DNA of 64,000 nt, taken from NCBI GenBank assembly GCA_965113315.1, contig OZ220369.1, one strand, 5' to 3'. The notes beneath the pieces are model-generated. The model was given only the letters and a program-made list of their open reading frames with translations. It was not told the DNA's origin and made no database searches. Both the position numbers and the translations under genes were made by a program. The DNA is from Podarcis vaucheri. Lineage: Eukaryota. Within the stretch, counting starts at the first letter, position 1; each line of letters opens with the position of its first letter. Of this stretch, positions 6,435 to 59,400 are shown in pieces.

Positions 6435-6665
6435 CAGTGGTACCTCGGGTTATTTATGCTTCAGGTTACATACGCTTAAGGTTACAGACTCCGCTAACCC
6501 AGAAATATTACCTCGGGTTAAGAACTTTGCTTCAGGATGAGAACAGAAATCGTGCAGCGGCAGCAAGAGGCCCCATTAGCTAAAGTGGTGCTTCACGTTA
6601 AGAACAGTTTCAGGTTAAGAACAGACCTCTAGAACGAATTAAGTTCTTAACCCGAGGTACCACTG
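6435..6665. mobile_element. Tc1/mariner MITE
   Basis: TA-CAGTGGTACCTCGGGTTA ... TAACCCGAGGTACCACTG-TA; same family as 27416-27641. Confidence 0.88.
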
Positions 6666-6735
6666 TACTTCTGTACTTGTTAGTACATGTGTGTGTGTAT
6701 TGACTCTATTTTGGCCACATGTAAAACCTATACTT

Positions 6736-10564: not shown

Positions 10565-11783
10565 TATGTCCTCCACTGTCAGAGGAGACAGTACTGCGCT
10601 AGATGGGCCAATGGTCTGAATTTGTATAATGCAACTTCCTATGCTCTTATGATTAGACAGTCCTTTGGCATGATCCAGCAGCGTTCTTATGATCTTATAA
10701 CTCTAGTGATGTTATCCCAAGCTGCTCATCTGGAGAAAGTATCAGGAGAGAGATAGAGAGATGTAGCCTGTAGTACCTCATATGAAATAAGGCTCCATCC
10801 CTTTGCCCTGCATGCTTTGTAACTAACAAGCTTTGCTAAGAAGGACAGTGTGGTTTCCTTTCAAGCTTTCAGGTTTACTGCTGGTGATGCCCATTGGCGA
10901 TGGAGCATTGTAAAATCCTTGCTTGCAGCAAACTTTCAACATCCATGAGACAGATAAACAGTTCCAAATGCTGATGGTAGTTTCAGTAGGATTGCGCCAA
11001 TAACAGGCAGGAGACTGGCAAAGATTTTTGAGCTCTATGGACATATGGTACACATAATCACTTGCTGAAATTGGTGCACATATTAATTTCTTCTGTCTTG
11101 CTTAGTACACGTCAGCCAATGGGTTTCCAAGTGTCCTGGAATTCACTGCCAGAAGAAGAACTCCAGCTCCCAGCTCGGCTTCTGCCAAAGACTTTAATGC
11201 TTAAATAAGAGTGGTACATAGGCAAGGCACAGTTACAAGGTACAGCAGGTGTGTAAGAGGATGAGATACCTAGCTAGGTGCAAGCTAAGGCGCTAGTCCA
11301 ACAAGCAACATGTCCTCTGCACCTTGCTTCAAAGGACAGGACAGGCACAACACTTAGCATAGCAAATGGCTGTAGTCATGAGACTGGGCAATCCTCAGGG
11401 TGGGTTGAGCTTGCAAGGTGGGTTTGTGCTGGTGTTTCTGAGTCCTAGGAGATGGAGGCAGGATCAACACTGGTTGTTGAGAAGCAGGTAGAAGAATCTG
11501 ACCCTGAATCTGAACATATGGGTCACATAAGTTCCACAAAATATCAAATGTACTTTTCAATGTGACTGCCCTTAAACATCTATGTAGTAGGATAAAATGT
11601 GCATATAAATGCATTTATTGGTGAAAATAACATACAGAAATGCATTACATTAGGGGAAATTGCTTTGCAAAAATGTATGCACTGGGCAAAACTGCAATAA
11701 AAATGTGTGTATTAGTAGAAATTCACACAAAAATGCTTATGAATACTAAAAATAAATAAATCTCAAGCTGATGTGGAAACATA

Positions 11784-12137
11784 CAGTGGTGCCTCGCAAG
11801 ACGAAATTAATTCATTCCGCGAGTTTTTTCGTCTAGCGAATTTTTCGTCTTGCGAAGCACGGTGTCGGAAAACTTTTGGAAAAGCTTAAAAAATCACCAA
11901 AAACCTCAAAAAAGGCTACCACACCGCGTTCTATGACTTGCTCCTCGAAGTCAAGCTGCAACTGTATTAACGGTGTTAAGAAAAAGGAAACAAACTTGCA
12001 AAAAACGCAAGACGTTTTCGTCTTGCGAAGCAAGCCCATAGGGAAATTTGTCTTGCGAAGCAGCTCAAAAACCACAAAACCCTTTCATCTAGCGAGTTTT
12101 TCGTCTTGCGAGGCATTCATCTTGCGGGGCACCACTG
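11784..12137. mobile_element. Tc1/mariner MITE (CGCAAGACG subfamily) nested in an older repeat
   Basis: TA-CAGTGGTGCCTCGCAAGA ... TCTTGCGGGGCACCACTG-TA; homologous to 27756-28111. Confidence 0.88.
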
Positions 12138-12269
12138 TACATCATAGGGCTGAAAAAATGAGAACCCAAAATTGACATATTCACCCAAACCTAATGGTAA
12201 CTGGGTTGGTTCACCTTTCAGTGTGAACTGAATCAAATTCTTCCCCCCTGTCCCTAGCCCTAGTGAGTA

Positions 12270-27415: not shown

Positions 27416-27641
27416 CAGTGGTACCTCAGGTTACATACGCTTCAGGTTACACACTCCACTAACCCAGAAATAGTGCTTCAGGTTAAGAACTTTGCTTCAG
27501 GATAAGAACAGAAATTGGGCTCCGGCGGCATGGCAGCAGCAGGAAGCCCCATTAGCTAAAGTGGTGCTTCAGTTTAAGAACAGTTTCAGGTTAAGAACGG
27601 ACCTCTGGAATGAATTAAGTACTTAACCTGAGGTACCACTG
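27416..27641. mobile_element. Tc1/mariner MITE
   Basis: CAGTGGTACCTCAGGTTA ... TAACCTGAGGTACCACTG-TA. Confidence 0.85.
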
Positions 27642-27755
27642 TATTAGAATTTAAAAAAGAAAACTGCCCTGGGCTTTAGGTCCACTGACCTAGAGAGTAA
27701 AAGGTGTAAAGCTGTTCTGTTTTTGAATCTGACAGTGTTATCCACCACTGAACTA

Positions 27756-28111
27756 CAGTGGTGCCTTGCAAGACGAAATTAATTCGTTCCGCGAGTTTTG
27801 TCGTCTTGCGATTTTTTTCTTCTTGCGAAGCACGGTGTCAGGAAAGTTTTGGAAAAGCTTCAAAAATCACCAAAGTCTTTAAAAACCTCAAAAAAGGCTA
27901 CCACACCACGTTCTATGAGTTGCTCCTCAAAGTCAAGTCGCAACTGTATTAACGGTGTTAAGAAAAAGGAAACAAACTTGCAAGACGTTTCCGTCTTGCC
28001 AAGCAAGCCCATAGGGAAAATCATCTTGCGAAGCAGCTCAAAAAACAAAAAACCCTTTTGTCTAGCGAGTTTTTTTGTCTTGCGAGGCATTCGTCTTGCG
28101 AGGTACCACTG
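27756..28111. mobile_element. Tc1/mariner MITE
   Basis: TA-CAGTGGTGCCTTGCAAGACG ... CGTCTTGCGAGGTACCACTG-TA. Confidence 0.88.
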
Positions 28112-30190
28112 TATGCCTCTCTGGAGAAGACTCACAGTTCATAGCACATTCTTTCCGTGAAGAAGGTTCTAGGTTTAATCTCTGTCCTCCCCAGGTGGGA
28201 CTGGGAAAGACCCCTGTCTGAGACCTTGGAAATCCATTGCCCGTAGGTGTAGGCCAGGGTGCCCTCCAGTTGCTGTTGGACTCCAACTACCACCATCCCT
28301 GTCCCTTGGTAATATCAACTGGAGATGCTGGAAGCTGGTGTCCAACAACATCTGGAGGGTGCAATGTTGGCTACCCCTGATGGAGACAATACTAAGCAAG
28401 ATGGACCAATGGTTTGATGGGGTTATGTAGCCTCCTCTATTCCTCTGCCTCCCTTGGAAGGAGAGCCTGCACATTCCTACCCACTTGGAGATTGAGCCTG
28501 CCACGTTGAGGTTATTAGCATCATGCCCTGACCACCTGAACTACCTGTGCAACTGGCAGGGATGCACCTAGGGATTGGTCAGGTTGGTCCCCGCCAAGGA
28601 TGCAGGTCCAAGAGGGCACAAAAATTGTGAAGGACAAGCTGGCGATTGCCAAGGGCACAAGGGAATGTGATGCAGATACTGCTCCTTGCCAGGGGTCCCA
28701 GGGAGCCTAGGTACACCTCTGAACTGGTTTAGAGTTTCCTGAACAGAAGGTGTGGCTTCCACCTTTGAATCTCAAACCCTCTCCTCTTAGCACAGCTTAT
28801 GAATGCTGAGAAATAAATAGGCAAAATGTGGGGTTTTTTTAATCTCCTCTAACTTTTTAATATAAAAAAGTTTTGATTTCTCCATTATTTCCCAAATAAG
28901 TGATTTTGCCATAATGAAGTAAAATGGCAACCTTAGCAAATAGCTTTATCACTGGATAAACTCAAAGCCAACGACTACAGAGACTCCTCATAAAACAACT
29001 GTTTGAAAGACTATTTCTTCCCACTTTAATAACTCAGCAGCTTAGCCGAGCTCTTAACAAGTTCCAGGGTTATTAAATAATCCAGCAAGTTACATTATCT
29101 GAAATAGAAATCCACATTTCATTAATGCGGAAATGCTGAATGCGACGGGTCCATTTTTCCTTTGCATATTACACCACCAAGTGGATGGAAGAATAAGGAG
29201 ATAGGAGGCCATTCACCGGCATCCTCTAGAGACACGAATGAGACAGAGGAGCTGCACATTGAGGAAGGTGGGTTCTTAAAAAATAAAGATAAACAAGACT
29301 CCCACTGAGGCACAACATATGTTTGGTTGGCCATCTCATAACATCTCGCCAGTCGTGAATATAATGCTTCATATGGGTTTCCTTCCTCCATTTGTTTTGC
29401 AGGTGTATTTTAGACTGTTTCCAAACAGGGGCTTAATATAAAGCAGGTATTGGGGGACCTTTGGCCTTCCAGATTTTGCTGAACTACAACTCCCATCGTC
29501 TGTGGCCACTGGCCATGCTTGCTAGGGCTGATTGGAGGTGTGCTAGATCAGCAGATCTCCTGTACTGGTTGGGTTACTGGATTAGCTGATCTTCGAGGTC
29601 CCACTAACATTGTGACTCTATGGGCCAAATTCAGGAGACCCTAATTCCTAAGGCAAGCTCTGATTTTGATTCTCTTCTTTTTGCAAAAAAAGGAAGTCGA
29701 TTATACAAGATGCAGATTGATGGTAAGCATCCACTGAAAGTGGCAACTCAACCGACAGAATGGCTTCCATTAATCGCATAACTTCCACGGTGGAAAGACA
29801 TGTGTATCGGTTATTCATGGCTGCGAGAGAATGAAGCAGGATTACATTCCACGCACCCCACCTCTCCCACCCTTCACAATAATCTCCGTTTCTTCATGGC
29901 TAATGACTCGCCGTTTGTTTGCAAATGGGATTTCAAACTCCATAGTACTCCAACCTAAAATGCGAACAATGAGGATGGGGAGAAACGCTGGAGAAGGAGT
30001 GTATGGAAAAAGGAAGCCTCTCTCTCACACACACAGCAGCCTGTGGTGGAAACAAACCTGCCTGTGCTTTGCTAGGTACGCTTAATAGTATTATTAGAAA
30101 AGAGTTTCCCCAACATCCGTAGTTAAAAATGCACACCTGCAGAACACCTTCAGAACGAATGACTAAGAATACATTTCCAAATGCTACAAG

Positions 30191-37400: not shown

Positions 37401-38392
37401 GGAAAGCTGGAATATGAATCCTGAAAGTTTTTAAAAAAATTAAGATCAGTCTCTAAATAAGGCTGAAATAGCAGCAACACTGTAGCTATTAGTTCTCACC
37501 GTTACTAACATGTAATTGGCCAAAATCTGAAAAACTGAAGTTTGCTTTCAAATTGTGGGCGGTTTCTTAATAGGCTGAAATGCTTCATGCGCCACTGTTT
37601 CTAAAATTAAAATAAATGTATGTTTGAAACTGAGATATGAAACACTTGAAACAGTCAGGAATACCCCACAAACATGGTCCAAAGAGTTATGGCAAGTGCA
37701 TCCCATGGCTGGATGGGACACTTCTGTGGTCTTATTCTCTTGATGACAGGGTGATAATGAGGCACACACCTGTCTTTGGCCATTGAGCCTCCCTGCTGAG
37801 CAGGTATGGCCAAAGTTAAAAAGACTGGCTCACTTTCCATCTCAGCTAGCTAAGCTGAAGAAGGGAGAAAGGCAGAAGTTCCAAAGGTGATTGAAGCAGC
37901 AGCTCTGAAACAACCCCCTTGCTACGGCATAGGCAGAATTAGAATTGGGGAGCGCACCACCACCTATGGAAAAGGTCTAATTTTTTTGTAGTGTGCATAG
38001 TCCTTCCTGTCAGAGCAATTGAGAGAGCTAACCAGCTTATGGAACCTTATGCACAGAAAAAGTGTTGTTAACAGGAGAAAGCAACTCTTGATGTGTTTAT
38101 TACCTTGCACAGCAGTACTTCATTTGAAAATATAGCATTTTCTATTTAGCATTTCTTAGGTGTGTGGGTGTGGGTGGGTGTGCGCACGCGCATGCACTCT
38201 AGTTAATATTTTTCTTTCATCTTTTTGTCCTAGAAGTGGAACAGACGCCACTTCAAGAAGCATTGAACCAACTTGTGAGGCAGCTGCAAAGGTGAGTTCT
38301 TCTCACACTCTGAGCATTTCTGATACTGCTAGTAGAAATTGCTAAAGACTAGAAAATGCTGTCTAATCAATGTGTTAATTTTTCTGAGCTGG

Positions 38393-38436
<44 letters not shown>

Positions 38437-41400
38437 CATGTGTTTGTGTTGCTATTACTATCAGCAACTGTAAAATCTGCCAAGTTAATGCATGTTGAAC
38501 CCAAGTTCCTCATCATCTTCCATCAATAATGGTTTTCACTTTTAATCGTTAAATCTTTATTGAAGTGGTTCTAGAAAGTTACTGATAAATGGGTTGTGTT
38601 TCTGTAGTAGTTATGGAATATCTTGTAGCTTTTATGGGATCTTGGTTAGTGGTCTAAGTTTATCTTTCTCCAGAGGGCATTAAAGGTAAAGGGTAAAGGG
38701 ACCCCTTCCCATTAGGTCCAGTCGTGACCGACTCTGGGGTTGCGGCGCTCATCTCACTTTATTGGCCGAGGGAACCGGCGTACAGCTTCCGGGTCATGTG
38801 GCCAGCATGACTAAGCCGCTTCTGGCGAACCAGAGCAGCGCACGGAGACGCTGTTTACCTTCCCACCAGAGCGGTTCCTATTTATCTACTTGCACTTTGA
38901 CGTGGTTTTGAACTGCTAGGTTGGCAGGAGCTGGGACCGAGCAACAGGAGCTCACCCTGTCACAGGGATTCGAACCGCTGACCTTCTGATCGGCAAGTCC
39001 TAGGCTCTGTGGTTTAACCCACAGCGCCACCTGCGTTCAGAGGGCATTAGGTTCTCCTAATAGGAAAAATCTGTCTGACATATACTCTTGCTTAACCCAT
39101 GTGAACTTTTCTAGCCTCATAGGGAATTGTTCATGTAACTTGACTACAGATTATATGAAGCATTGCTCCATTAGGGCAAAAACATACTTTCTTTTTTTAA
39201 AAGGAGTTTATCAGGGAAAGGGTGGAAGTAAGCAGTAGTTACTAGAGGAAGGTCAAATTAATTTTGACGATTCCAGGCCTATTCTTGCTTGTGGATTTGC
39301 CCAAAAGCTAGTGACAATCTTCTCAGTCAGTGCAGTTGAGTTATATGTATGATTCGTGACCGCCTTGGACAACTCATCTTTCATAGCTTTTAGGTATGTT
39401 GCATACTGTCAGGGGATGGTTAGCTGCTTGTGCTTAAAATTGTGCCCCTTCAGAGTTTGTGCGACCCCACAAACCTCTGTGTGTGACAGAGCTCCTCAGA
39501 CATGTCTGCTCTAGTCACTAGTAGAGTCTGACAGTGGCTGTCTGCGGAAGCGCTTCCAGCAAAGAAGTTCCTTAACGGAAACGCGTCTCCTGGACTCACG
39601 ACGTGGCAGCTTCCGGCGGAGTATGGGTCTCCCTGCAGTTGCTTCTGACACCTCCCCGCTATTTTCGCTCGAAGTGTCTCTCACCCCTTTCTCTCCCCTG
39701 CTACTTCCTGCCTGGGCTGCTGCGTCTCTCTCAGCATTACTGAGATCCTCCTCCAGAGACCCCGCGCTCCCCCTGCTGGTCCCTGCTTTGGCTGTTGACT
39801 CTCTCCCAGTCTCTGGGAGCCTTACCACTTCCCTTTCCTCCGATGTCAGTTCCCTGACATCCACCTCCCCTCCAGGGCCCCCCTCTCCCCCGCCCCTACT
39901 TTCTCCTCTGGGCGGTGAGGAGCTGAAACCCCTAAAAGAATCCTCTTCATCTTCAGACGTCTCGAACAATTCCCTCCATCGGTCTTCGTTCCGACTCGCT
40001 GAATCCTCCTCCACCTCGGAATCAGCGAACCCCTCCAACTCTTCTTCGTCGTCGGTGGTGGCGAAGTATTCCCTCCGGAACCTCGCCACTGGCTGGGGTT
40101 TTCTAGGGAATCTCTGATGAAAAGTTTCAATCAAAACCTCGTCATCTACATCCTCTGCCCTGACCCAGGTGTTTTCCGACTCCGGCTCCCCTTCCCACAT
40201 TACCAAATACTCTACTTGCTCTCCCCTCCACCTAGAATCGAGAATCTCCGCTACATGGTAGCTGTGTTCTTTTTCCTCCATAGCTGGTCCCCTATTGACC
40301 CTCCCCTCTCTGTCCCCTATATACGGTGACAGCAATGATCTGTGGAACACTGGGTGCAACTTCATGTGGTTCGGTAACCGGAGTCTGAAAGCCACTGGGT
40401 TGACCTGTTGCGTGACTTCAAATGGGCCCAGTCTTTTGGGTCTTAACTTCTTACAACCTCCTTTAAATGGTAACCCTTGGGTGGACAGCCACACCTGGTC
40501 CCCCACCCTAATGCTTTCCCCTTCCCTTCTGGTTTTGTCTGCCTGCCTCTTATATTCCTCCTTCGCCCTGTTTAAATTAAGTTGGAGCTGGCGATGGATC
40601 GCTTCCATTTCTTCAACGAACTGTTCTGCGGCAGGAACGCTCCAGTTCTCCCCCTCCCCCCCTGGGAAGGCTCGGGGATGACACCCGTGATTGGCCAAAA
40701 AAGGGCTCATCCCCGTGGACACGTTCTCTGCATTGTTATAGGCAAATTCTGCCAACGCCAGCTTCTCCACCCAATCATTCTCTCTGTCATTCACATAACA
40801 CCTCAAATATTGCTGGAGGACACCATTAGCTCTTTCCGCCTGCCCATTGGTTTCTGGATGACGGGCAGTGGAAAAATTCACCTCTACATGCAATAAGCTC
40901 ATGAGCTTCCTCCAGAACCTGGAAGTAAATTGTTTCCCTCGGTCCGAAACCACCCTCAAGGGGGCACCATGCAACCTAAACACATTTTCCACAAACAATC
41001 TAGCGGTTTCTTCTGCTGTGACCGCATGTGAGCAGGCTATAAAGTGGGCCATCTTGGTTAACAGGTCTACCACAACCATAATGGCTGTCTTCCCTTTGGA
41101 CCTGGGCAGATCAGTCATGAAATCTATTGCCACTGCCTCCCATGGTCTTTCCGGCGTGGGTAGTGGTTCTAATAAACCGGCCGGTGCCCGCCTCTCCCCC
41201 TTGGCTCGTTGACATCGGTCACACCCTCTCACATATTCACGCACATCTTCCCTGACCTTGGGCCACCAGAATTCCCTGGTAACCAGCCACATGGTTTTGT
41301 GTTGCCCAAAATGCCCTGCTGTGGGGCTATCGTGCAGTTGCTTGAGTACCTTTTCCCTCAATTCCCCTTCAGGTATGTATAACGCTCCCTTGTAATACAA

Positions 41401-44400
41401 CGCCCCGTTTCTCTCCTCAAAACCCCCGGGTTTGTCTCCCTCCCTCCTGAGACCCCTGAGTTTGTCCTGGGCGTATTCATCCTGCACCGTTCCCTCTACC
41501 AGTTCCCTTTGCCCCACCAAAGCCGCCCCACACACCCAGCGGTCCTCGGGAATAACATGGGTCTCTTCGGGTGCACCCTCTCCCTCCAAATATTCAGGTT
41601 TGCGTGAGAGAGCGTCCGCCCTAACGTTCTCCGGGCCTGGTACGTAACAAATCTCAAAGTTAAATTTGGAGAACTCCTGGGCCCATCTCAACTGCCTTTG
41701 GTTGAGCACTCGCGCAGTTCTCCAATACTCTAGATTCTTATGGTCCGTGCACACTTGCACCTTCTGTTGTGCACCAATTAGTAGGTGCCTCCATCTCCGG
41801 AAGGCCTCATAAATAGCCAGAAGTTCCCGGTCGTGCACCGTGTAGTTTCTCTCAGATTTGTTCAGCTTTCGCGAAAAGAAGGCACACGGTCGCCACTCTG
41901 ACCCCTCCTTCCCCGGCTGCAGAAGAAGCACCGCCCCTATGGCTCTGTCAGAAGCGTCTGTTTCGACCCTCAGCTTTTTTTGTAAATCCACATGTAGAAG
42001 TTGTTCGTCAGAGGCGAAGGCCCTTTTCAGTTCCTCAAACGCTCGCTCCGCCTCCCCCGTCCAAACAAACTTCTTTTTGCTGCTGAGACAGTCCGTGATG
42101 GGCGCCGTCAGGTGGGCGAAGTTTCGGATGAACTTACGATAAAAGTTTCCAAACCCTAGGAACCTCTGCACATCCTTCTTGGTCTTGGGTGTTTTCCATT
42201 CCAGCACCGCTTGAACCTTGCCGGGGTCCATGGCCAACCCCTTGTCTGACAAGCGGTACCCCAGGAATTCCACCTCCTTGGTATGAAACTGACACTTTTC
42301 CAGTTTCACCCACAGTCCGTTGGCTTGCAGCCTGCTCAACACTTCTCTGACGTCTCTCACATGTTGCTCCTCATTCTCCGAATACACCAACACGTCATCT
42401 AAGAAGGCCACGCAATTTTTGTAGAGCAAAGGCCCCAGTACATGGTTCATAAAGGCTTGAAAACACGCGGAGCCTGTTTGTAATCCAAAAGGCATAACGA
42501 GGTATTCAAATGCCCCCAAAGGGGTGAACATGGTGGTCTTCCATTCATCCCCTTTCCTTATACGTATCAGGTTGTACGCCCCCCTTAGGTCCAGCTTTGT
42601 AAAAATCTTTCCTTTTCGCACCCTGGTCAAAATATCATCAATCCTGGGCATAGGAAAAGCCGCCGGCTCTGTCACTGCATTTAGGGCCCGAAAGTCACAT
42701 ACCAGCCTCGGCTTGTCCGTGTTTTTTTTATCCACAAAAAACACTGGGCTACCCCCCGCTGCCTTGGACTCTCTGATGAAGCCTCTCTTCAGGTTCTTGT
42801 CAATGAACGCTCGCAACTCCTGCATCTCCCTGTCTGACATGGCATACAACTTGCCTACAGGAAGCTGTGCTCCAGGGAGTAAATTGATCTGGCAATCAAA
42901 GGGCCTATGCGGGGGTAGTTGGTCCGCTTCCTTCTCGCTGAACACGTCGCTGAGATCAGCATACTGTGGTGGCACCTTCCCCTTCTCCATCACTTCCGTC
43001 CCTGCTAGGGTGGCTTGGACCCCTGCTGACCCCTTTTCCGCCCTGCAGTGTTCTAAGCAGTGTGCGGAACCGAAGGAAACCACTCTTTGATGCCAGCCCA
43101 CCAGCGGATCATGTAGGGCTAGCCAGCTCATTCCCAAAATAATGGGAGCGCCTCCCAAGGTGGCCACATTAAACGCTATCAGTTCTGTGTGCCTTGCCAC
43201 CCTCATTATCATTGGGACGGTCTGCAAGCTGACGCCTCCTCCCAACAGTTCCCTGCCATCAATCGTGGTCACCTGCAGGGGGTTGCTTAAAGGGATAGTC
43301 TGTATCTGGTGCTCAGCAGCAAACTCCTTGCTCATGAAATTGCAGGAGCTGCCTGAGTCCAACAGCGCCTTTATTTTTAGGGGGTGTCCATTTTGCAGCT
43401 CTAGCGACACTTCAATCACTAGAGCAGGTCGAGGAGCTTCTGGCACTGGCACTTGGGGAAGGGGCACTTTCACTGCTCTTTGGCCTGGCTGCAGTGCCCT
43501 GCTGGCAACCAGGCGTTGGCTTTTACCTGCTCCGTTTCTCCCTGCTCTTCCCCCTCAACAGCTCCCACCATCCCTTGCCATTCCTTCCTCTGGGGGCAGA
43601 CTCTGGCAAAGTGGCCTGGCTGTTGGCAGAGATAGCATTTCCGGGCTCCCTTTCCCTCCTTCTTCGCCCCCTCACTGGGCTTTGAAACTGCGCGCGCGCG
43701 GGCTGTTCCGATTTCCATCGGCTCTGCCGGCGGGAAAGCTGGCTCAGGAATGTCTGGAATGCGGAACTCCTTCCAACGTTCCCCTCTCCCTTCCCGCCTC
43801 TCCAAGGCTCTTGCCTCCTGGCGCGCTCCAATGGTCAGCGCAGATTTGGTCAGCTGATCCATAGACCCCGCCCTGGGGCTCCTGGCCAGCTCGTCTTTCA
43901 CAGCTGAAGAAAGACCTTCTTCAAATAGCATCTGAATGGGTGCCGCCGATAAATCCCACCCCAATCTGTGAATCAGCATGGTAAATTCAGTCCAGTACTC
44001 ACGGACAGATCTGCTTCCCTGCTTGCAAGCCATTAGCTGTCTGCGTACCGCCCCTTCCTCAATATCGCTGGAAAACATGATATCCATTGCACGAAAGAAT
44101 TTCATAGTGTCCTTTAGGATATCGTTGTGCGTTGCCATCAGGGGTCGAACCCAGTCCCGCGCCCCCTTCTCAAGATGCCCAATTACGAACGCAACTCGCG
44201 ATTCCTCATCAGGGAACTCATCAAACTGCACATTCAGAGCATATTGCATCTCGGTCCTAAAGGCATGGTAATCCTTGGGGTCCCCCCCAAACTTCTGCAC
44301 CAATCCTGGTACCTTTCTGGGGAACTGAGTGGTTCTCCCCTTTTTGTCAGCATCCTGAGCCCTTCTCTCCTCGAGCCTCGCCGTCTGCAGCGCAAGTTGG

Positions 44401-47400
44401 ACCTCCAGAGCTTGATACCTTTCTTCCAAGCTTGGACCAGCTCCAACCCCTGCGTCTCCGGTTCCGACTGGGTTGCTCATGATGCTTTCTCCTGCACAGG
44501 CAGCGTACAGAGACTGTCAGACTGCTGTCAGGGGATGGTTAGCTGCTTGTGCTTAAAATTGTGCCCCTTCAGAGTTTGTGCGACCCCACAAACCTCTGTG
44601 TGTGACAGAGCTCCTCAGACATGTCTGCTCTAGTCACTAGTAGAGTCTGACAGTGGCTGTCTGCGGAAGCGCTTCCAGCAAAGAAGTTCCTTAACGGAAA
44701 CGCGTCTCCTGGACTCACGACGTGGCAGCTTCCGGCGGAGTATGGGTCTCCCTGCAGTTGCTTCTGACACCTCCCCGCTATTTTCGCTCGAAGTGTCTCT
44801 CACCCCTTTCTCTCCCCTGCTACTTCCTGCCTGGGCTGCTGCGTCTCTCTCAGCATTACTGAGATCCTCCTCCAGAGACCCCGCGCTCCCCCTGCTGGTC
44901 CCTGCTTTGGCTGTTGACTCTCTCCCAGTCTCTGGGAGCCTTACCACTTCCCTTTCCTCCGATGTCAGTTCCCTGACACATACCTATGTGGACCAGAATG
45001 AGGATTTGATGGTTTCTTTCTTAGTTTTAACTTACACTTGGTGAGGCTTGGACTATTGATGTTTGAAGGCTTTGCTCTATGTATTAACACTGCTTGGAGT
45101 TTGGGGAATGCTGCCAGTCTTAAACAGGACCCTTCAATTGAAGGTGAGAGTAAGATTTTGCAAGCATTCAACGGCCTTGTAAAATAGAATTGCTTTCTCT
45201 GCCATTGATATTATAATCCATTTTGGTGTTCTAAGGAGAGACAGAATGTGGCACCTGTGGTTTGGTTTAGAAATGTCAAACATGCTTTAAAAATAAAATC
45301 CCATCAAAAGTAAAGAAATAAAATAAAATAAAAAGGGAGGGTGAGACTGCTTCCAGGCAGCACCTCTACAACTTTAAAGAAATGCAAGATTGTATTATTA
45401 GGGCAAAAGCTCTCTTGTTTCAGTTCAGTTCTGTGGTTTCTTTCAAGTTGGAGTCTTCTCTCCTATTTAATACTAAGCTCTGTCTGTTCTTTGTTATAGA
45501 AATGAAACATAAAGGGCTCTTCTTTTCATTTCTTAACAGAAAGGATCCAAATGCTTTCTTTTCATTTCCTGTGACTGACTTTATTGCTCCTGGCTACTCC
45601 ATGATCATTAAACGCCCAATGGATTTTAGTACCATGAAAGAGAAGATCAAGAACAATGGTTACCAGTCCATAGAAGAACTAAAGGTGCTTTTAATTTATA
45701 TTTTAACTGCAGAGGGGGGATTAGACGTTGACACTTGCTGGTACTAGCAATTGCATTGTGCAGGTTTTTTTCAATATTTTATTCATTTTGGTGCTGCACT
45801 TTCATAGTTTATGAACACATAGAATAAAAAATTGGCGCATCTGGCTTTCAGAGTTGTTCATTTGCTTTCTTTAGAGAAAGTCTTTGTGAATGTTTTCAAG
45901 AGACATTTTTCATGTTCCAGGGTGTTGGAAATTTTGTGTGTGTGTGTGTGTGTCAAGGAGAAAAGACTGAACAGCAGAAGTACTTGATCTTTTAAAACAA
46001 GGATGTGAAATGAACCTGGTCATTAGTGCATCAGAGTAGTAAATACTTATAGTCATAATTAAGTGACTCTTCACCATTGTACTAATAAGGTTGAGGTTTT
46101 TCTGTGTTTAAGAGAACTACTTAAATCACAGAAGCATGTAAATATGTTTGTGTTGTTGTTGTTTTGTTGTTGTTTTCTTGAGAAATGTAGGAAAGAAGCT
46201 TTAGCACACAGGACAGTAATAAGAATCCCTTACGTTCTTCCAGAATGTAATACAATTGCATTACTGAAACAAATATTGTGTATATTGACTCTCATCCCCC
46301 CCCCCAAAAAAAAAGTTTAGGAAATTTTAAAAAATGCAACTTGCCTCTTTCCTGCCTTATATAGCACTATATTTTAAAATGCCTGCCCCAACCTTTTATC
46401 CTTTTATTTGCATATTTTAAAGAAAAACACGTGTGATTCCCTTATTGCTGTTGTCATCCTGACAAAAAGAGCCCTCTGATCTCTTGGGAGTACTGTCTGC
46501 ATTGAGCATTGCCTTTATCAGCACATTAATATGAAAAGTGTAAAGTCAGATGTCTGTCATAAGCATCTTTGGTCTCAGATCAAATCTGTCATCTTTAACA
46601 CACATCAACTGCTGGCCTAGTGTTTTGCAAACTAATATCTAAGTAAAAGGATACCAAATCCCAACCAGAGACTCAGCCTGTCACGCTTAAGAGCTTCGAG
46701 GCGGCAGAGAATGCAGGCCTGGTGCCTCTTCTGCCAGCTAGTGCAATGATTTCTTAGCCTGCCCTTTTCTTCTATCTGCAGTAGTTCTGTAGTTAGAGGT
46801 GGGTCAGGAGAGAGACTATTAGAACAGTGGAGTAAGCTAGAACCATGGAGTAGCAATGCTTCCTATCTGCATGTGCGCACACAGCAGTGCTGTCTATGCA
46901 TGTGTGTGTGCACAAGCGTGGTTGCTAGGTTGGAACTTGGAAATTTTACTAATAAACTATATAGACTAACTTGCACCTGTATTATAATGCATTATTCCTT
47001 TATCCTCCATATTATGAGGATACTTTTTTAGCCAGGCAGAACAAACAGCACCTGCCATCTTGTCCACAGTACAAATTTCCATACATAAAGGGGCAGATAT
47101 ATTTTCTAGGAAACATTCCTGTAAGTTCCTACTAATGTGTCTTACTTCTTCTGTTGATACAGGAGAACTTCAAACTGATGTGTACTAACGCCATGGTCTA
47201 TAACAAACCAGAGACCATTTATTACAAAGCTGCTAAAAAACTCTTGCATTCAGGAATGAAAATACTCAGCCAGGTAACTGAATTAAGGAAATAATTCAAG
47301 AGGTATTGGAGTTTTGTTGGCTTGTGTATGGTTTCATCATATTTCCATTTGTGTTTAATAGAGAAGAGGCCATTCTTTTCTAGCTAAAGGCTAAGTCATT

Positions 47401-56400: not shown

Positions 56401-59400
56401 GGGGACAATTACCCTGGACTGTAAAAAAATCTACATGGCAGATATTACTTCTGAGACCAGGTACTGGTTCTCCTTGAGAAAGCATGTTGGAGGAAAGGCA
56501 TACCTTTAGAAATATTTCAAACTATGTTTTTATGTAAGAGTATTTAACTCACCTGGATCCCACTGTGAAGTTTTCATTGAGAAATTTATTCCCTGTAATG
56601 GGGTTAATTAGCAGAAAACTAGCTTGATAAGATGTGTGTGTGTTATAACTAAGCCTGCAATCATGTGCACAGGCTGCTTAAAACCCATCAGCTTTAGGTC
56701 AGATTCTTATGCCCCTTCGGTGTCATGGGACCCACAGCAGTATTACTCCTTCCTGTATCACTGTGGTAATATGAAAAGCCCGGGATTACATAGGAGAAGC
56801 CCTCACTGTCCACCTCAAGCAAATATAACCAACATCTGGAAGGCACCCACCCTGGAGTGTTTTAAATCAGAGGTAACCAGTTGAAGGGGTTGAGCAGCTT
56901 GAAAACTTTATCCTTCTTTTCTAGTTGCAGCCAGCAGAAGAAGCTGAATGTCTGTGTGAAAAGTCTGCTACAAGCAAGGATGTGGAGGTGATACTCTTCT
57001 GAATTTGATTGAGGCAGTGAAAGGTTCTCATGCAAGCCAGTTAGAATAATTTGTTTCAAGTGCCAAATTTTATGTACAGTGGTGCCTTGCAAGACGAAAA
57101 GAATCCGTTCTGTGATTCTCTTCGTCTAGCGGTTCTTTCGTCTTGCGAAGCAAGCCCATTGAAGGATTAGCGGATTAGTGCTATTAGCAGCTTTTAGCGT
57201 CTTATCTGCTGATCGGATCAGCTGATAAGCAGCTTAGCGGCTTAGAAAAAGGGGGGGGGAAGGAAAAAAAACCAGCAGGAACTCGCAAGACATTGTCGTC
57301 TTGCGAAGCAAGCCCATAGGAAATTCGTTTTGCGAAGCACCTCCAAAACGGAAAACTCTTTCGTCTAGCGAGTTTTCCGTCTTGAGAGGCACCACTGTAC
57401 TTCTACATAAAACCGGAACAGCTGACTTGCTCTTTACTGTGCAGCATTGGAGATAAACTTCCAGCTCTGTGTTGCAACCTTTCATTCATAGCATTAAAAT
57501 CAAGTTATGTAAAGTTCACCTTATTGTTGTGCCACGGTCAGATTTTAATTGCAGTCATCTGTATTCTCCAGCCACAGCGTGTACTATATAAAGAAACCTG
57601 TTTTAAATCCTTATTACTTTGAAAGCTAAGCCCTCACAACTTCATGCTGTTGTCTGTTCAACATAACTGTTGTAAACAGGAGACATTTGATGAAGGAGGT
57701 ATAAATGTATTACTAAGGTATCCTCATCTGACTCATTGGCAAATGGATGAGATTCTGCAGAATGGTTTAATTGCCTCTCTTTTGTTGTAAATGTTGAAGA
57801 TGGAACATAGTCCCAGATATGATAGTTGACCAGCTGATACTGGAGTAGTTCTAATTATAGTGGTTTAAACCATCCCACTTAGTATATAGCAGGGATGGGG
57901 AATATGTGGTCCTCCAGCTGTTGGGCCACAACAGCCCCAGCCAGCATGCCCAATGGACATTCCCCATTCTTAATGCCTATTTTTGATCTGAAGAAAAGGT
58001 TGAGAGTCACCACAAATGCACTGCTTGGTTCAAATATTTTGTATAAATTTGGGTTTTGCTTGATTTTTAAGAACCTGCATTTGTTTGCCATCTACAGATT
58101 CTGGAAACAGCTCAACCAAGTAGGTTTGACTCCTCTCTCAGTAAGGAGAGGCTGACAGCACTGAGAGCAGTAACCAATTTTGGAATGCCTGTGGAGGAGT
58201 TTGACTCAGAAGGTGAGTGGCATGAACTGGGCACTTGTTGCTTTGCAAGGCCTCTTGGCACATTCCAGCCCAGCTGATGTCTGCCCAAAACTTCACTTTC
58301 AATTGAACAGAAGCGGAGGTCTTCCAGAAAAAACTTGACGAAACCACAAAATTGCTTCGGGAGCTTCAAGACGCTCAGAATGAACGACTAAGTACGAAGC
58401 CACCTCCGAACATGATCTGCCTTTTGGGCCCATCTTACAAAGAGATGCAGTTGGGTAAGTGTGTTGCTCCTGGCACGTGAAACCTTTAAATTTTAGACAC
58501 GTCCTGGCTCTTTAGTCTAACCTCTGCCCTGCTACTAACTTCTTTAAAATGGATGCTGGTTGTCTTGGTAACCACATTTATCAAATGGAGCAGCATTGCC
58601 ACGACAATATAGGGACATCACCTTCCTGGATGTCATAGAAGAGTGGAAGATTTGTGGTTGCTGGCGGGGATTGAAATGCTAGTTACTGCAAGCTGAAGGA
58701 GATTCCTTTATGCCTTGCTGGCTGCTGCAGGCAGAGGGGCCAAGCCTGGAAAGCTAGATGAAAGTAATCTTCCCTTGCCCCCACTATCTGAAGTCATGAT
58801 GGACAGGGCAGGGCCAGCAAAGACTCTGCAGCTAGTGCACAGAGCAAGTTAGATACGGTAGCCACGACGGGAAACAAGGTAGTGCATTTCACTTCCTTAT
58901 TGTTCCTATTGTTATACCGTATGGAGGGCTGCATGGCTTACTGTGCATGAGGTGATTTTGCTTGCTTTGCTCCTCTGTGCTAGAGCACTGGCCCCCTAAC
59001 CACAATTCCTGGGGGCTTAGTGATATGTCAAAACCAGGGATTGTGGTTTGTATGGAGTGAAGCAAATTAGGACCTTCTCAGTAGAATGCTCTCCCATCTG
59101 ATGCCAACCCTCTTCAGGGAACCTTTTAATGGTTGATGTTTTATTGTGTTTTTAATATTTTGTTGGGAGCCACCCAGAGTGGCTGGGGCAACCCAGTCAT
59201 ATGGGTGGCATATAAAAAATTATGATGACCTTTGACTAGGATATAGTACTAAGCCAGTGACCATGGTTTGTTCCCATGCACCAGTAGAGAAAATGGTCCA
59301 GATAGGTGAGTGATTTATCATAAATCATTAACTCTGCCCCACTTTACATGTCATGGAAAACCAATGTGTGCCAACTAGTTTTATATGACAGAACCCTGCA

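What the first reader, a model, noticed from the sequence alone, without database searches (positions are those of the whole stretch)
39925..40080. Chromovirus integrase tail carries two tandem LEDGF-IBD/TND-binding-like motifs: candidate host-tethering system for integration into transcribed genes
Seen: right after the chromodomain, Pol has two similarly built 18-aa segments, FRREYFATTDDEEELEGF (40080-40027) and WRELFETSEDEEDSFRGF (39978-39925). Each is a short amphipathic helix ending in F, then an acidic S/T-rich linker with CK2-type sites, then (L/F)xGF. Established: this layout, with core (E/D)-x-E-x-F-x-G-F, is the IBM/TIM motif by which CDCA7L/JPO2, POGZ, MLL1 and IWS1 bind the LEDGF/p75 and HRP2 integrase-binding domain or related TFIIS N-terminal domains. 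Binding is enhanced by CK2 phosphorylation. HIV integrase uses the same LEDGF domain to target H3K36me3 gene bodies. Inference: this reptile retrotransposon may mimic host TIMs to tether its intasome to elongation chromatin. This would fit its position in an intron of a housekeeping gene and its imperfect chromodomain cage. I am not aware of this being described for a Gypsy element.
Basis: partly seen in the sequence, partly recalled or inferred. Interest (0 to 1): 0.88.

Follow-up and report, generated by a model that had tools for sequence, protein, structure and literature searches.

The report
Lizard retrotransposon mimics LEDGF-docking motif
A very young, intact lizard retrotransposon carries two short motifs in its integrase tail, held by selection across a clade whose chromodomain has lost histone-reading residues, that likely mimic the host motif for docking on LEDGF/HRP2 (the chromatin tether HIV uses); binding and targeting to genes remain untested.

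Summary
Observation confirmed. Both segments lie in the Pol tail of an intact Ty3/Gypsy chromovirus (identical LTRs, at least 150 near-identical copies) inserted antisense in a BRD7 intron of a lacertid lizard.

The motif is conserved and under selection. In 43 natural copies, the helix F, the anchor F and the G are invariant and the last F is kept in 41. Synonymous sites are near saturation while anchor pN is 0–0.10. The motif marks one clade about 1.1 substitutions per site deep, whose chromodomain aromatic cage is broken; 0 of 177 intact-cage chromodomain proteins carry it. The layout (helix-F, 8–9-residue acidic linker, FxGF) matches solved LEDGF ligands, and the host encodes LEDGF and HRP2.

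Not shown: binding (the complex prediction gave no answer) and targeting to transcribed genes. Young copies are random with respect to gene markers at megabase scale and about 5-fold enriched on a W-like contig. Neither copy matches the quoted core exactly; motif 1 has L for F in this subfamily.

Nine literature searches found no earlier report. Verdict: a likely new variant of tethering by motif mimicry.

The parts
44525..44978 (-). 5' LTR, 454 bp, TG...CA
   Evidence: 100% identical to the 3' LTR
43470..44516 (-). gag frame (Retrotrans_gag, Ty3 capsid, CCHC knuckle)
39511..43554 (-). pol frame, 1347 aa stop to stop: protease, RT, RNase H, integrase, SH3, chromodomain, tail; runs into the 3' LTR
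40855..41148 (-). integrase core (rve, residues 803-900)
40111..40260 (-). chromodomain; cage Y1099 and W1120 kept, third aromatic replaced by E1123
   Evidence: Pfam Chromo E 8.5e-12; pLDDT 87-93; cage definition from PMC3350952 passages
40027..40080 (-). TIM-like motif 1: helix ending in F, 8-residue acidic linker, LxGF (FxGF in most other subfamilies)
39925..39978 (-). TIM-like motif 2: W..F helix, 9-residue acidic S/T linker, FxGF
39860..39873 (-). polypurine tract directly before the 3' LTR
   Evidence: sequence, LTR edge
39406..39859 (-). 3' LTR, which also encodes the last ~115 Pol codons
39541..39618 (-). LTR-encoded basic stretch plus LLxW motif at the Pol C-terminus, conserved in the clade
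39401..39405 (.). 5-bp target site duplication (second copy 44979-44983)
38234..38291 (+). host BRD7 exon upstream of the insertion
   Evidence: splice joint 37288>38234 in RNA reads; exon candidate
45529..45687 (+). host BRD7 bromodomain exon downstream of the insertion
   Evidence: phmmer to BRD7 E 6e-26, BRD7 residues 146-198

Best explanation
The two conserved tail motifs likely mimic the cellular TND-interacting motif and would dock the integrase of this Gypsy clade on the integrase-binding domain of LEDGF/p75 or HRP2, a borrowed chromatin tether that likely replaces the clade's broken chromodomain cage. Shown: intact young element; motifs in frame after the chromodomain; protein-level selection on the anchor residues; co-occurrence with cage loss; host PSIP1 and HDGFL2 present. 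Inferred: the helix F fills the first IBD pocket, the acidic linker (probably CK2-phosphorylated) lies on the basic patch, and FxGF fills the second pocket; two motifs per chain and several chains per intasome would add avidity; the receptor's PWWP domain would hold the complex on H3K36me2/3 nucleosomes, which predicts broad euchromatic, gene-body-leaning integration rather than strict targeting.
For: Layout equals the TIM definition (helix, 8-16-residue acidic linker, FxGF), and all known LEDGF/HRP2 partners need the FxGF part (PMC9987994 passages). Linkers are 8 and 9 residues versus 8, 10, 8 and 14 in the JPO2-M1, JPO2-M2, POGZ and MLL1 constructs. hhalign pairs motif 1 with these ligands (E 0.0028, probability only 10.9%). 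In 43 natural copies, motif-1 anchors are F 43/43, F 43/43, F30/L13, G 43/43, F 41/43, with x free (Q,E,A,V,I) and no indel in the linker; motif-2 anchors are kept in all 25 double-motif copies. pN is 0.095 and 0.000 at anchors versus 0.24-0.39 in neighbouring residues and 0.19 in the chromodomain, with pS 0.6-0.9. The motif is present in 0 of 177 intact-cage and 16 of 26 broken-cage chromodomain proteins; the bearers form one clade in a tree built without chromodomain and tail (SH-aLRT 95, quick tree). Host IBD exons are present and 92-97% identical to vertebrate PSIP1.
Against: No binding data. Copy positions give no support for gene targeting: gene markers within 1 Mb 0.57 versus 0.51 expected (P 0.22, n 94), within 2 Mb 0.98 versus 1.01; 12 of 108 youngest copies lie on a 39-Mb gene-poor W-like contig, about 5 times the density elsewhere. 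Older motif-bearing copies sit on that contig and at chromosome ends (9 of 27 and 9 of 18), like the intact-cage control. This subfamily has L for the first F of motif 1, two copies have W for the last F, and the single-motif lineage has an S/T rather than acidic linker. Aromatic and Gly residues are often the most conserved in any motif, so conservation alone does not name the partner.
Confidence: 0.57

Rival explanations
1. The motifs bind LEDGF, HRP2 or another TND protein, but not to steer integration into genes: for example HRP2/POGZ/HP1 on silent chromatin, general chromatin retention, gap repair, or help with transcription of the new copy.
For: HRP2 is reported to prefer silent-chromatin marks and to associate with CBX1 and POGZ (PMC4797281 abstract). 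Young copies are enriched about 5-fold on the W-like contig and random to gene markers. Many TIMs bind other TNDs through the helix alone.
Against: The W and chromosome-end excess grows with age (young 99.5%, control 98.3%, single-motif lineage 95-96% pairwise identity), as expected from retention rather than targeting. The coupling to cage loss suggests a replaced targeting function. LEDGF acts locally within genes while megabase gene-density bias is attributed to CPSF6 (PMC8149907 passage), so the megabase test does not exclude gene-body targeting.
Confidence: 0.2
2. The aromatic-acidic-FxGF segments bind a different partner (histone H2A-H2B, a PH-type or other acidic-motif reader, or the element's own capsid or integrase) and resemble TIMs by convergence of composition.
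For: Acidic-aromatic motifs are common in chromatin proteins (recalled). hhalign probability against known TIMs is low (10.9%). No PDB sequence matched the tail profile at E up to 10. The single-motif lineage lacks an acidic linker.
Against: Invariant G-F with a free x, fixed F-to-F spacing of 8-9 and an upstream helix, repeated twice, are the defining TIM features. AlphaFold2 models the tail at low confidence, unlike the well-folded chromodomain (pLDDT 44-59, pTM 0.43).
Confidence: 0.2
3. The segments are chance or nucleotide-level features of the region before the polypurine tract, with no protein role.
For: They lie 65-220 nt upstream of the 3' LTR, where cis signals are expected.
Against: Anchor codons vary synonymously (TTT/TTC, GGG/GGA/GGT) with pS 0.73-0.87 while pN is 0-0.10; 11 of 200,000 shuffles give two motifs.
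Confidence: 0.03

Closest known systems
Cellular TIM/IBM ligands of LEDGF/p75 and HRP2 (JPO2/CDCA7L, POGZ, MLL1/KMT2A, IWS1; Drosophila JIL-1 with JASPer)
   Same: Helix ending in F, acidic S/T-rich linker, FxGF, in a disordered region; the JPO2 constructs M1 and M2 also show two such motifs from one protein.
   Different: Here the motifs are on a mobile element's integrase; binding not measured; motif 1 has L for F in this subfamily. POGZ is a transposase-derived host gene, not an active retroelement.
Lentiviral integrase-LEDGF tethering (HIV-1)
   Same: Same proposed host domain and outcome: an integration complex tethered by an H3K36me2/3 reader.
   Different: HIV integrase binds through a folded interface (recalled), not a linear TIM; gene targeting is proven for HIV and not shown here.
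Integrase C-terminal linear-motif tethers: MLV integrase tail-BET ET domain; HTLV-1 integrase-PP2A-B56; Ty5 targeting domain-Sir4
   Same: A short motif in a flexible integrase tail recruits a host factor (MLV: PMC8149907 passage; HTLV-1: search listing only; Ty5: recalled).
   Different: Different motif and receptor; none is a vertebrate Gypsy chromovirus, and none pairs the motif with a decayed chromodomain.
Chromoviruses (Ty3/Gypsy) with group I or group II chromodomains, e.g. MAGGY
   Same: gag-pol layout, PR-RT-RH-IN-SH3-chromodomain, 5-bp TSD.
   Different: Vertebrate elements are described as group I with an intact Y24/W45/Y48 cage, and cage-less group II as plant-only (PMC3350952 passages). 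This lizard clade has a broken cage (the single-motif lineage also lacks W45) and has gained the TIM-like tail.

Membership tests
Ty3/Gypsy chromovirus | LTRs, TSD, gag, pol in order PR-RT-RH-IN, chromodomain at the integrase C-terminus | tested here: met
Group I (MAGGY-type) chromodomain | Three-residue aromatic cage Y24/W45/Y48 | tested here: not met
   Y48 equivalent is E in the window and the double-motif lineages; the single-motif lineage also lacks W45
TIM/IBM (LEDGF/HRP2 type) | Obligate short alpha-helix with F/V/L/I anchors | tested here: met
   Predicted helices H61-69 and H96-103, at low confidence; anchor F invariant
TIM/IBM (LEDGF/HRP2 type) | Acidic linker of 8-16 residues rich in D/E and S/T | tested here: met
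   8 and 9 residues, acidic in the window; S/T-rich but not acidic in the single-motif lineage
TIM/IBM (LEDGF/HRP2 type) | FxGF | tested here: met
   Motif 2 met in the window and in 25 of 25 double-motif copies. Motif 1 is LxGF in the window; first position F in 30 and L in 13 of 43 copies
TIM/IBM (LEDGF/HRP2 type) | Lies in an intrinsically disordered region | tested here: met
   pLDDT 44-59 over the tail versus 87-93 in the chromodomain; spacer variable in length
TIM/IBM (LEDGF/HRP2 type) | Physical binding to the IBD/TND, FxGF-dependent | not testable with these tools
   needs NMR, ITC or pull-down
TIM/IBM (LEDGF/HRP2 type) | Affinity raised by CK2 phosphorylation of the linker | not testable with these tools
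   S/T-x-x-D/E sites present in the sequence only
LEDGF-tethered, gene-targeted integration (HIV-like) | New insertions enriched inside transcribed genes | tested here: inconclusive
   No annotation available; megabase gene-marker proxy shows no enrichment but does not measure gene-body targeting

The most novel reading that the evidence does not exclude
A vertebrate Gypsy clade abandoned chromodomain reading of heterochromatin and evolved a cellular-type LEDGF/HRP2-binding linear motif, later doubled, that steers integration into H3K36-methylated transcribed chromatin: HIV's host tether reached independently, by mimicking the host's own ligands.
Probability: 0.35. Interest if true: 0.88.

Novelty: new variant of a known kind. 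Interest (0 to 1): 0.72.

Why it matters
How vertebrate LTR retrotransposons choose insertion sites is largely unknown. This gives a named, cheaply testable receptor and a natural series within one genome: intact cage without motif, broken cage with one motif, broken cage with two. If binding holds, it would be the first mobile-element mimic of a TIM that these searches could find, a second origin of LEDGF use besides lentiviruses, and a possible competitor of MLL1, IWS1 and POGZ for LEDGF in the lizard germline during a very recent burst of insertions.

Tried and rejected
Complex prediction (2 copies of lizard PSIP1 IBD plus the 64-residue tail): no answer, score 0.01 against a mark of 0.34, alignments not used, peptides and disordered chains uncalibrated; it is no evidence either way. 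ESM Atlas on the tail: best score 0.80, leads only. PDB sequence search with the tail profile: 0 hits at E up to 10. Earlier findings of this scan: nothing. The look-up of sequencing runs: no RNA holder listed. Element RNA depth was near zero in two raw RNA runs, but these runs differ from the window at fixed sites and may be a relative, so this was not used. The contrast in chromosomal position between the young family and the intact-cage family P0006 (12 of 108 versus 22 of 39 on C41) looked supportive but was rejected as age-confounded. A shared flank of three young copies was a script artefact. FFAT-, LIR- and WxxF-acidic readings (recalled motifs) were rejected because their key residues are not what is conserved. 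A strand-skew or exon-finding test of flanks for gene-body membership was judged underpowered and not run. The careful tree did not finish; the quick tree is cited.

Full report
1. What is there. Window 39406-44978 (- strand) is an intact Ty3/Gypsy chromovirus: 454-bp LTRs that are 100% identical, a 5-bp target duplication, a gag frame and a 1347-aa pol frame with protease, RT, RNase H, integrase, SH3 and chromodomain hits. The two segments translate exactly as reported. The element lies antisense in BRD7. RNA reads splice 34217>36237 and 37288>38234 (the runs may be from a close relative), and the next exon, 45529-45687, matches the BRD7 bromodomain. The junction across the element itself was outside the stretch laid. 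The family is very young: the 150 best-scored matches in G000 are 99-100% identical over chromodomain plus tail (108 at 100%, counted), and ten sampled copies are 99.5% identical pairwise. The closest named proteins are from Podarcis muralis (94%).

2. Is the motif real? A TIM-style pattern, written after seeing the data and recovering 3 of 4 known ligands, appears twice in 11 of 200,000 shuffles of the tail. To test conservation I took older subfamilies from G000. Of 70 loci, 48 passed the anchor and stop filter and 6 more were dropped for upstream frameshifts, leaving 42 plus the window. Motif 1: helix F 43/43, anchor F 43/43, then F30/L13, a free x (Q,E,A,V,I), G 43/43, F 41/43 (W 2), with a fixed 8-residue linker. 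Motif 2 is present in 25 of 43, with all anchors kept, and absent from an 18-copy single-motif lineage. A further set of that lineage keeps motif 1 in 24 of 25 loci. Between six double-motif lineages, pN is 0.095 and 0.000 at the motif anchors, 0.24-0.39 in the adjacent helix, linker and spacer, and 0.19-0.20 in chromodomain and SH3, while pS is 0.6-0.9 everywhere. Against the single-motif lineage, anchors are 90% identical and linkers 9% (pairs are not independent). The constraint is therefore on the protein, and on exactly the residues that define a TIM.

3. Phylogenetic setting. A tree of 129 integrase core plus SH3 segments, built without chromodomain and tail, puts the bearers in one clade of 18 rows (SH-aLRT 95, quick tree, no bootstrap); 16 carry the motif and 2 are gene models that lack the chromodomain and tail. 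The clade spans about 1.1 substitutions per site (summed branch lengths). Among held proteins with a recognisable chromodomain, the motif occurs in 0 of 177 with W45 plus a third aromatic and in 16 of 26 without. Of the 10 misses, 2 belong to the family (one apparently frameshifted, one failing the linker threshold) and 8 are unrelated. This is one origin, not many independent events, so it shows association, not cause. Named members are Podarcis only; P0060, P0061 and P0352 are unnamed. Chromovirus-derived proteins from Rhineura, Vipera and Thamnophis have intact cages and no motif. Group II cage-less chromodomains are described as plant-only (PMC3350952, passages).

4. Match to known ligands. 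TIMs consist of an obligate helix, an 8-16-residue acidic linker often phosphorylated by CK2, and an optional FxGF that all known LEDGF and HRP2 partners need (PMC9987994, part 1 of 6 and passages). The IBD fusion constructs returned give real ligands with linkers of 8, 10, 8 and 14 residues; ours are 8 and 9. hhalign aligns motif 1 with them at E 0.0028 but probability 10.9%. AlphaFold2 predicts a folded chromodomain, two short helices at the motif starts and disordered linkers. Neither window copy matches the quoted (E/D)xExFxGF core exactly; other subfamilies do. The host encodes PSIP1 (C39) and HDGFL2 (C40) IBD exons (the HDGFL2 label is recalled), the PSIP1 exon 92-97% identical to other vertebrates. 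Binding itself was not measured.

5. Does it target genes? G000 has no annotation here, so I used 394 kinase, RRM, WD40 and Ras loci as gene markers. For 94 youngest copies outside C41, marker counts equal the random expectation at every scale (1 Mb: 0.57 versus 0.51, P 0.22; 2 Mb: 0.98 versus 1.01), and 9 of 94 lie within 5 Mb of an end (null 12%). Twelve of 108 lie on C41, a 39-Mb contig with 2 markers and an apparent gene pair with C42, hence W-like by inference: about 5 times the density elsewhere. The intact-cage family P0006 avoids markers (2 Mb: 0.57 versus 1.01, n 65) and sits on C41 (22 of 39) and at ends (9 of 17). But the older single-motif lineage does the same (9 of 27; 9 of 18), as do other older bearers (17 of 30, 10 of 20 and 13 of 20 fetched loci on C41). 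Those patterns track age and cannot be read as targeting. The proxy is also indirect: LEDGF acts locally within genes, and gene-dense bias is attributed to CPSF6 (PMC8149907, passage). Contig lengths are lower bounds and copy lists are capped at 150. Gene-body targeting is thus neither shown nor excluded, and HRP2's reported preference for silent chromatin (PMC4797281, abstract) keeps a non-genic tether open.

6. Mechanism. Most likely (0.57) the tail docks on the LEDGF or HRP2 IBD in the manner of JPO2, POGZ and MLL1, with avidity from two motifs and probable CK2 control, and the receptor's PWWP domain holds the integration complex on H3K36me2/3 chromatin in place of the decayed cage. Anatomy, selection and cage loss are shown; docking, phosphorylation and site choice are inferred. 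Rivals: same receptor but another purpose (0.20), another partner (0.20), no protein role (0.03).

7. Novelty. Nine full-text searches (listings and abstract starts) returned no report of a TIM or FxGF motif in a retrotransposon. The TND review's viral-mimicry section names only lentiviral integrases and has no occurrence of 'transpos'. Passages of 10.1101/624023, PMC8534522 and PMC13165374 added none. The library lacks most subscription papers, the primary IBM/TIM papers were not read, and no supplements were read; a motif-scan table there could list such elements. Tethering by an integrase-tail motif is a known kind (MLV-BET; HTLV-1-B56, listing only; Ty5-Sir4, recalled). A cellular-type LEDGF motif in a vertebrate Gypsy clade with a broken chromodomain would be a new variant of it. 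Interest 0.72.

Noticed in passing
window 39541-39618 (-), inside the 3' LTR: Pol reads through the polypurine tract and ~115 codons of the LTR and ends in a basic stretch plus LLxW-type motif. It is kept in P0060, P0061, P0350-P0352 and many G000 copies with synonymous codon variation: a second conserved short motif, possibly a nuclear localisation or chromatin-binding signal, unexplained.
   Followed up: partly
P0006 family, e.g. L103-L112; also P0354, P0180: Intact-cage chromoviruses carry an RRS[AS]R[LI] stretch near the Pol C-terminus, recalled as resembling HMGN-type nucleosome acidic-patch anchors; a possible alternative tether in the sister lineage.
   Followed up: no
G000:C41 (about 39 Mb): W-like contig: 2 of 394 gene markers, a WD40 hit with the same score as one on C42, and heavy accumulation of all Gypsy subfamilies examined.
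   Followed up: partly
L063-L082, L113-L137 (single-motif lineage): The chromodomain has lost W45 as well as the other cage aromatics, yet the rest of the domain is conserved; its motif linker is S/T-rich instead of acidic, which would make binding phosphorylation-dependent.
   Followed up: partly
window 44505-44524 (-): The sequence after the 5' LTR does not look like a standard tRNA primer site by eye; self-priming as in Tf1/sushi elements is a recalled possibility. Not tested.
   Followed up: no
window 11782-12139, 27754-28113, 57075-57399; also 6461-6667 and 27426-27643: Several dispersed repeat families with 2-3 copies each at 60-92% identity; the first set begins TACAGTGG and looks like a non-autonomous DNA transposon (recalled resemblance).
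   Followed up: no
L008, L009: Two of 30 young copies are inserted into (AT)n microsatellites.
   Followed up: no
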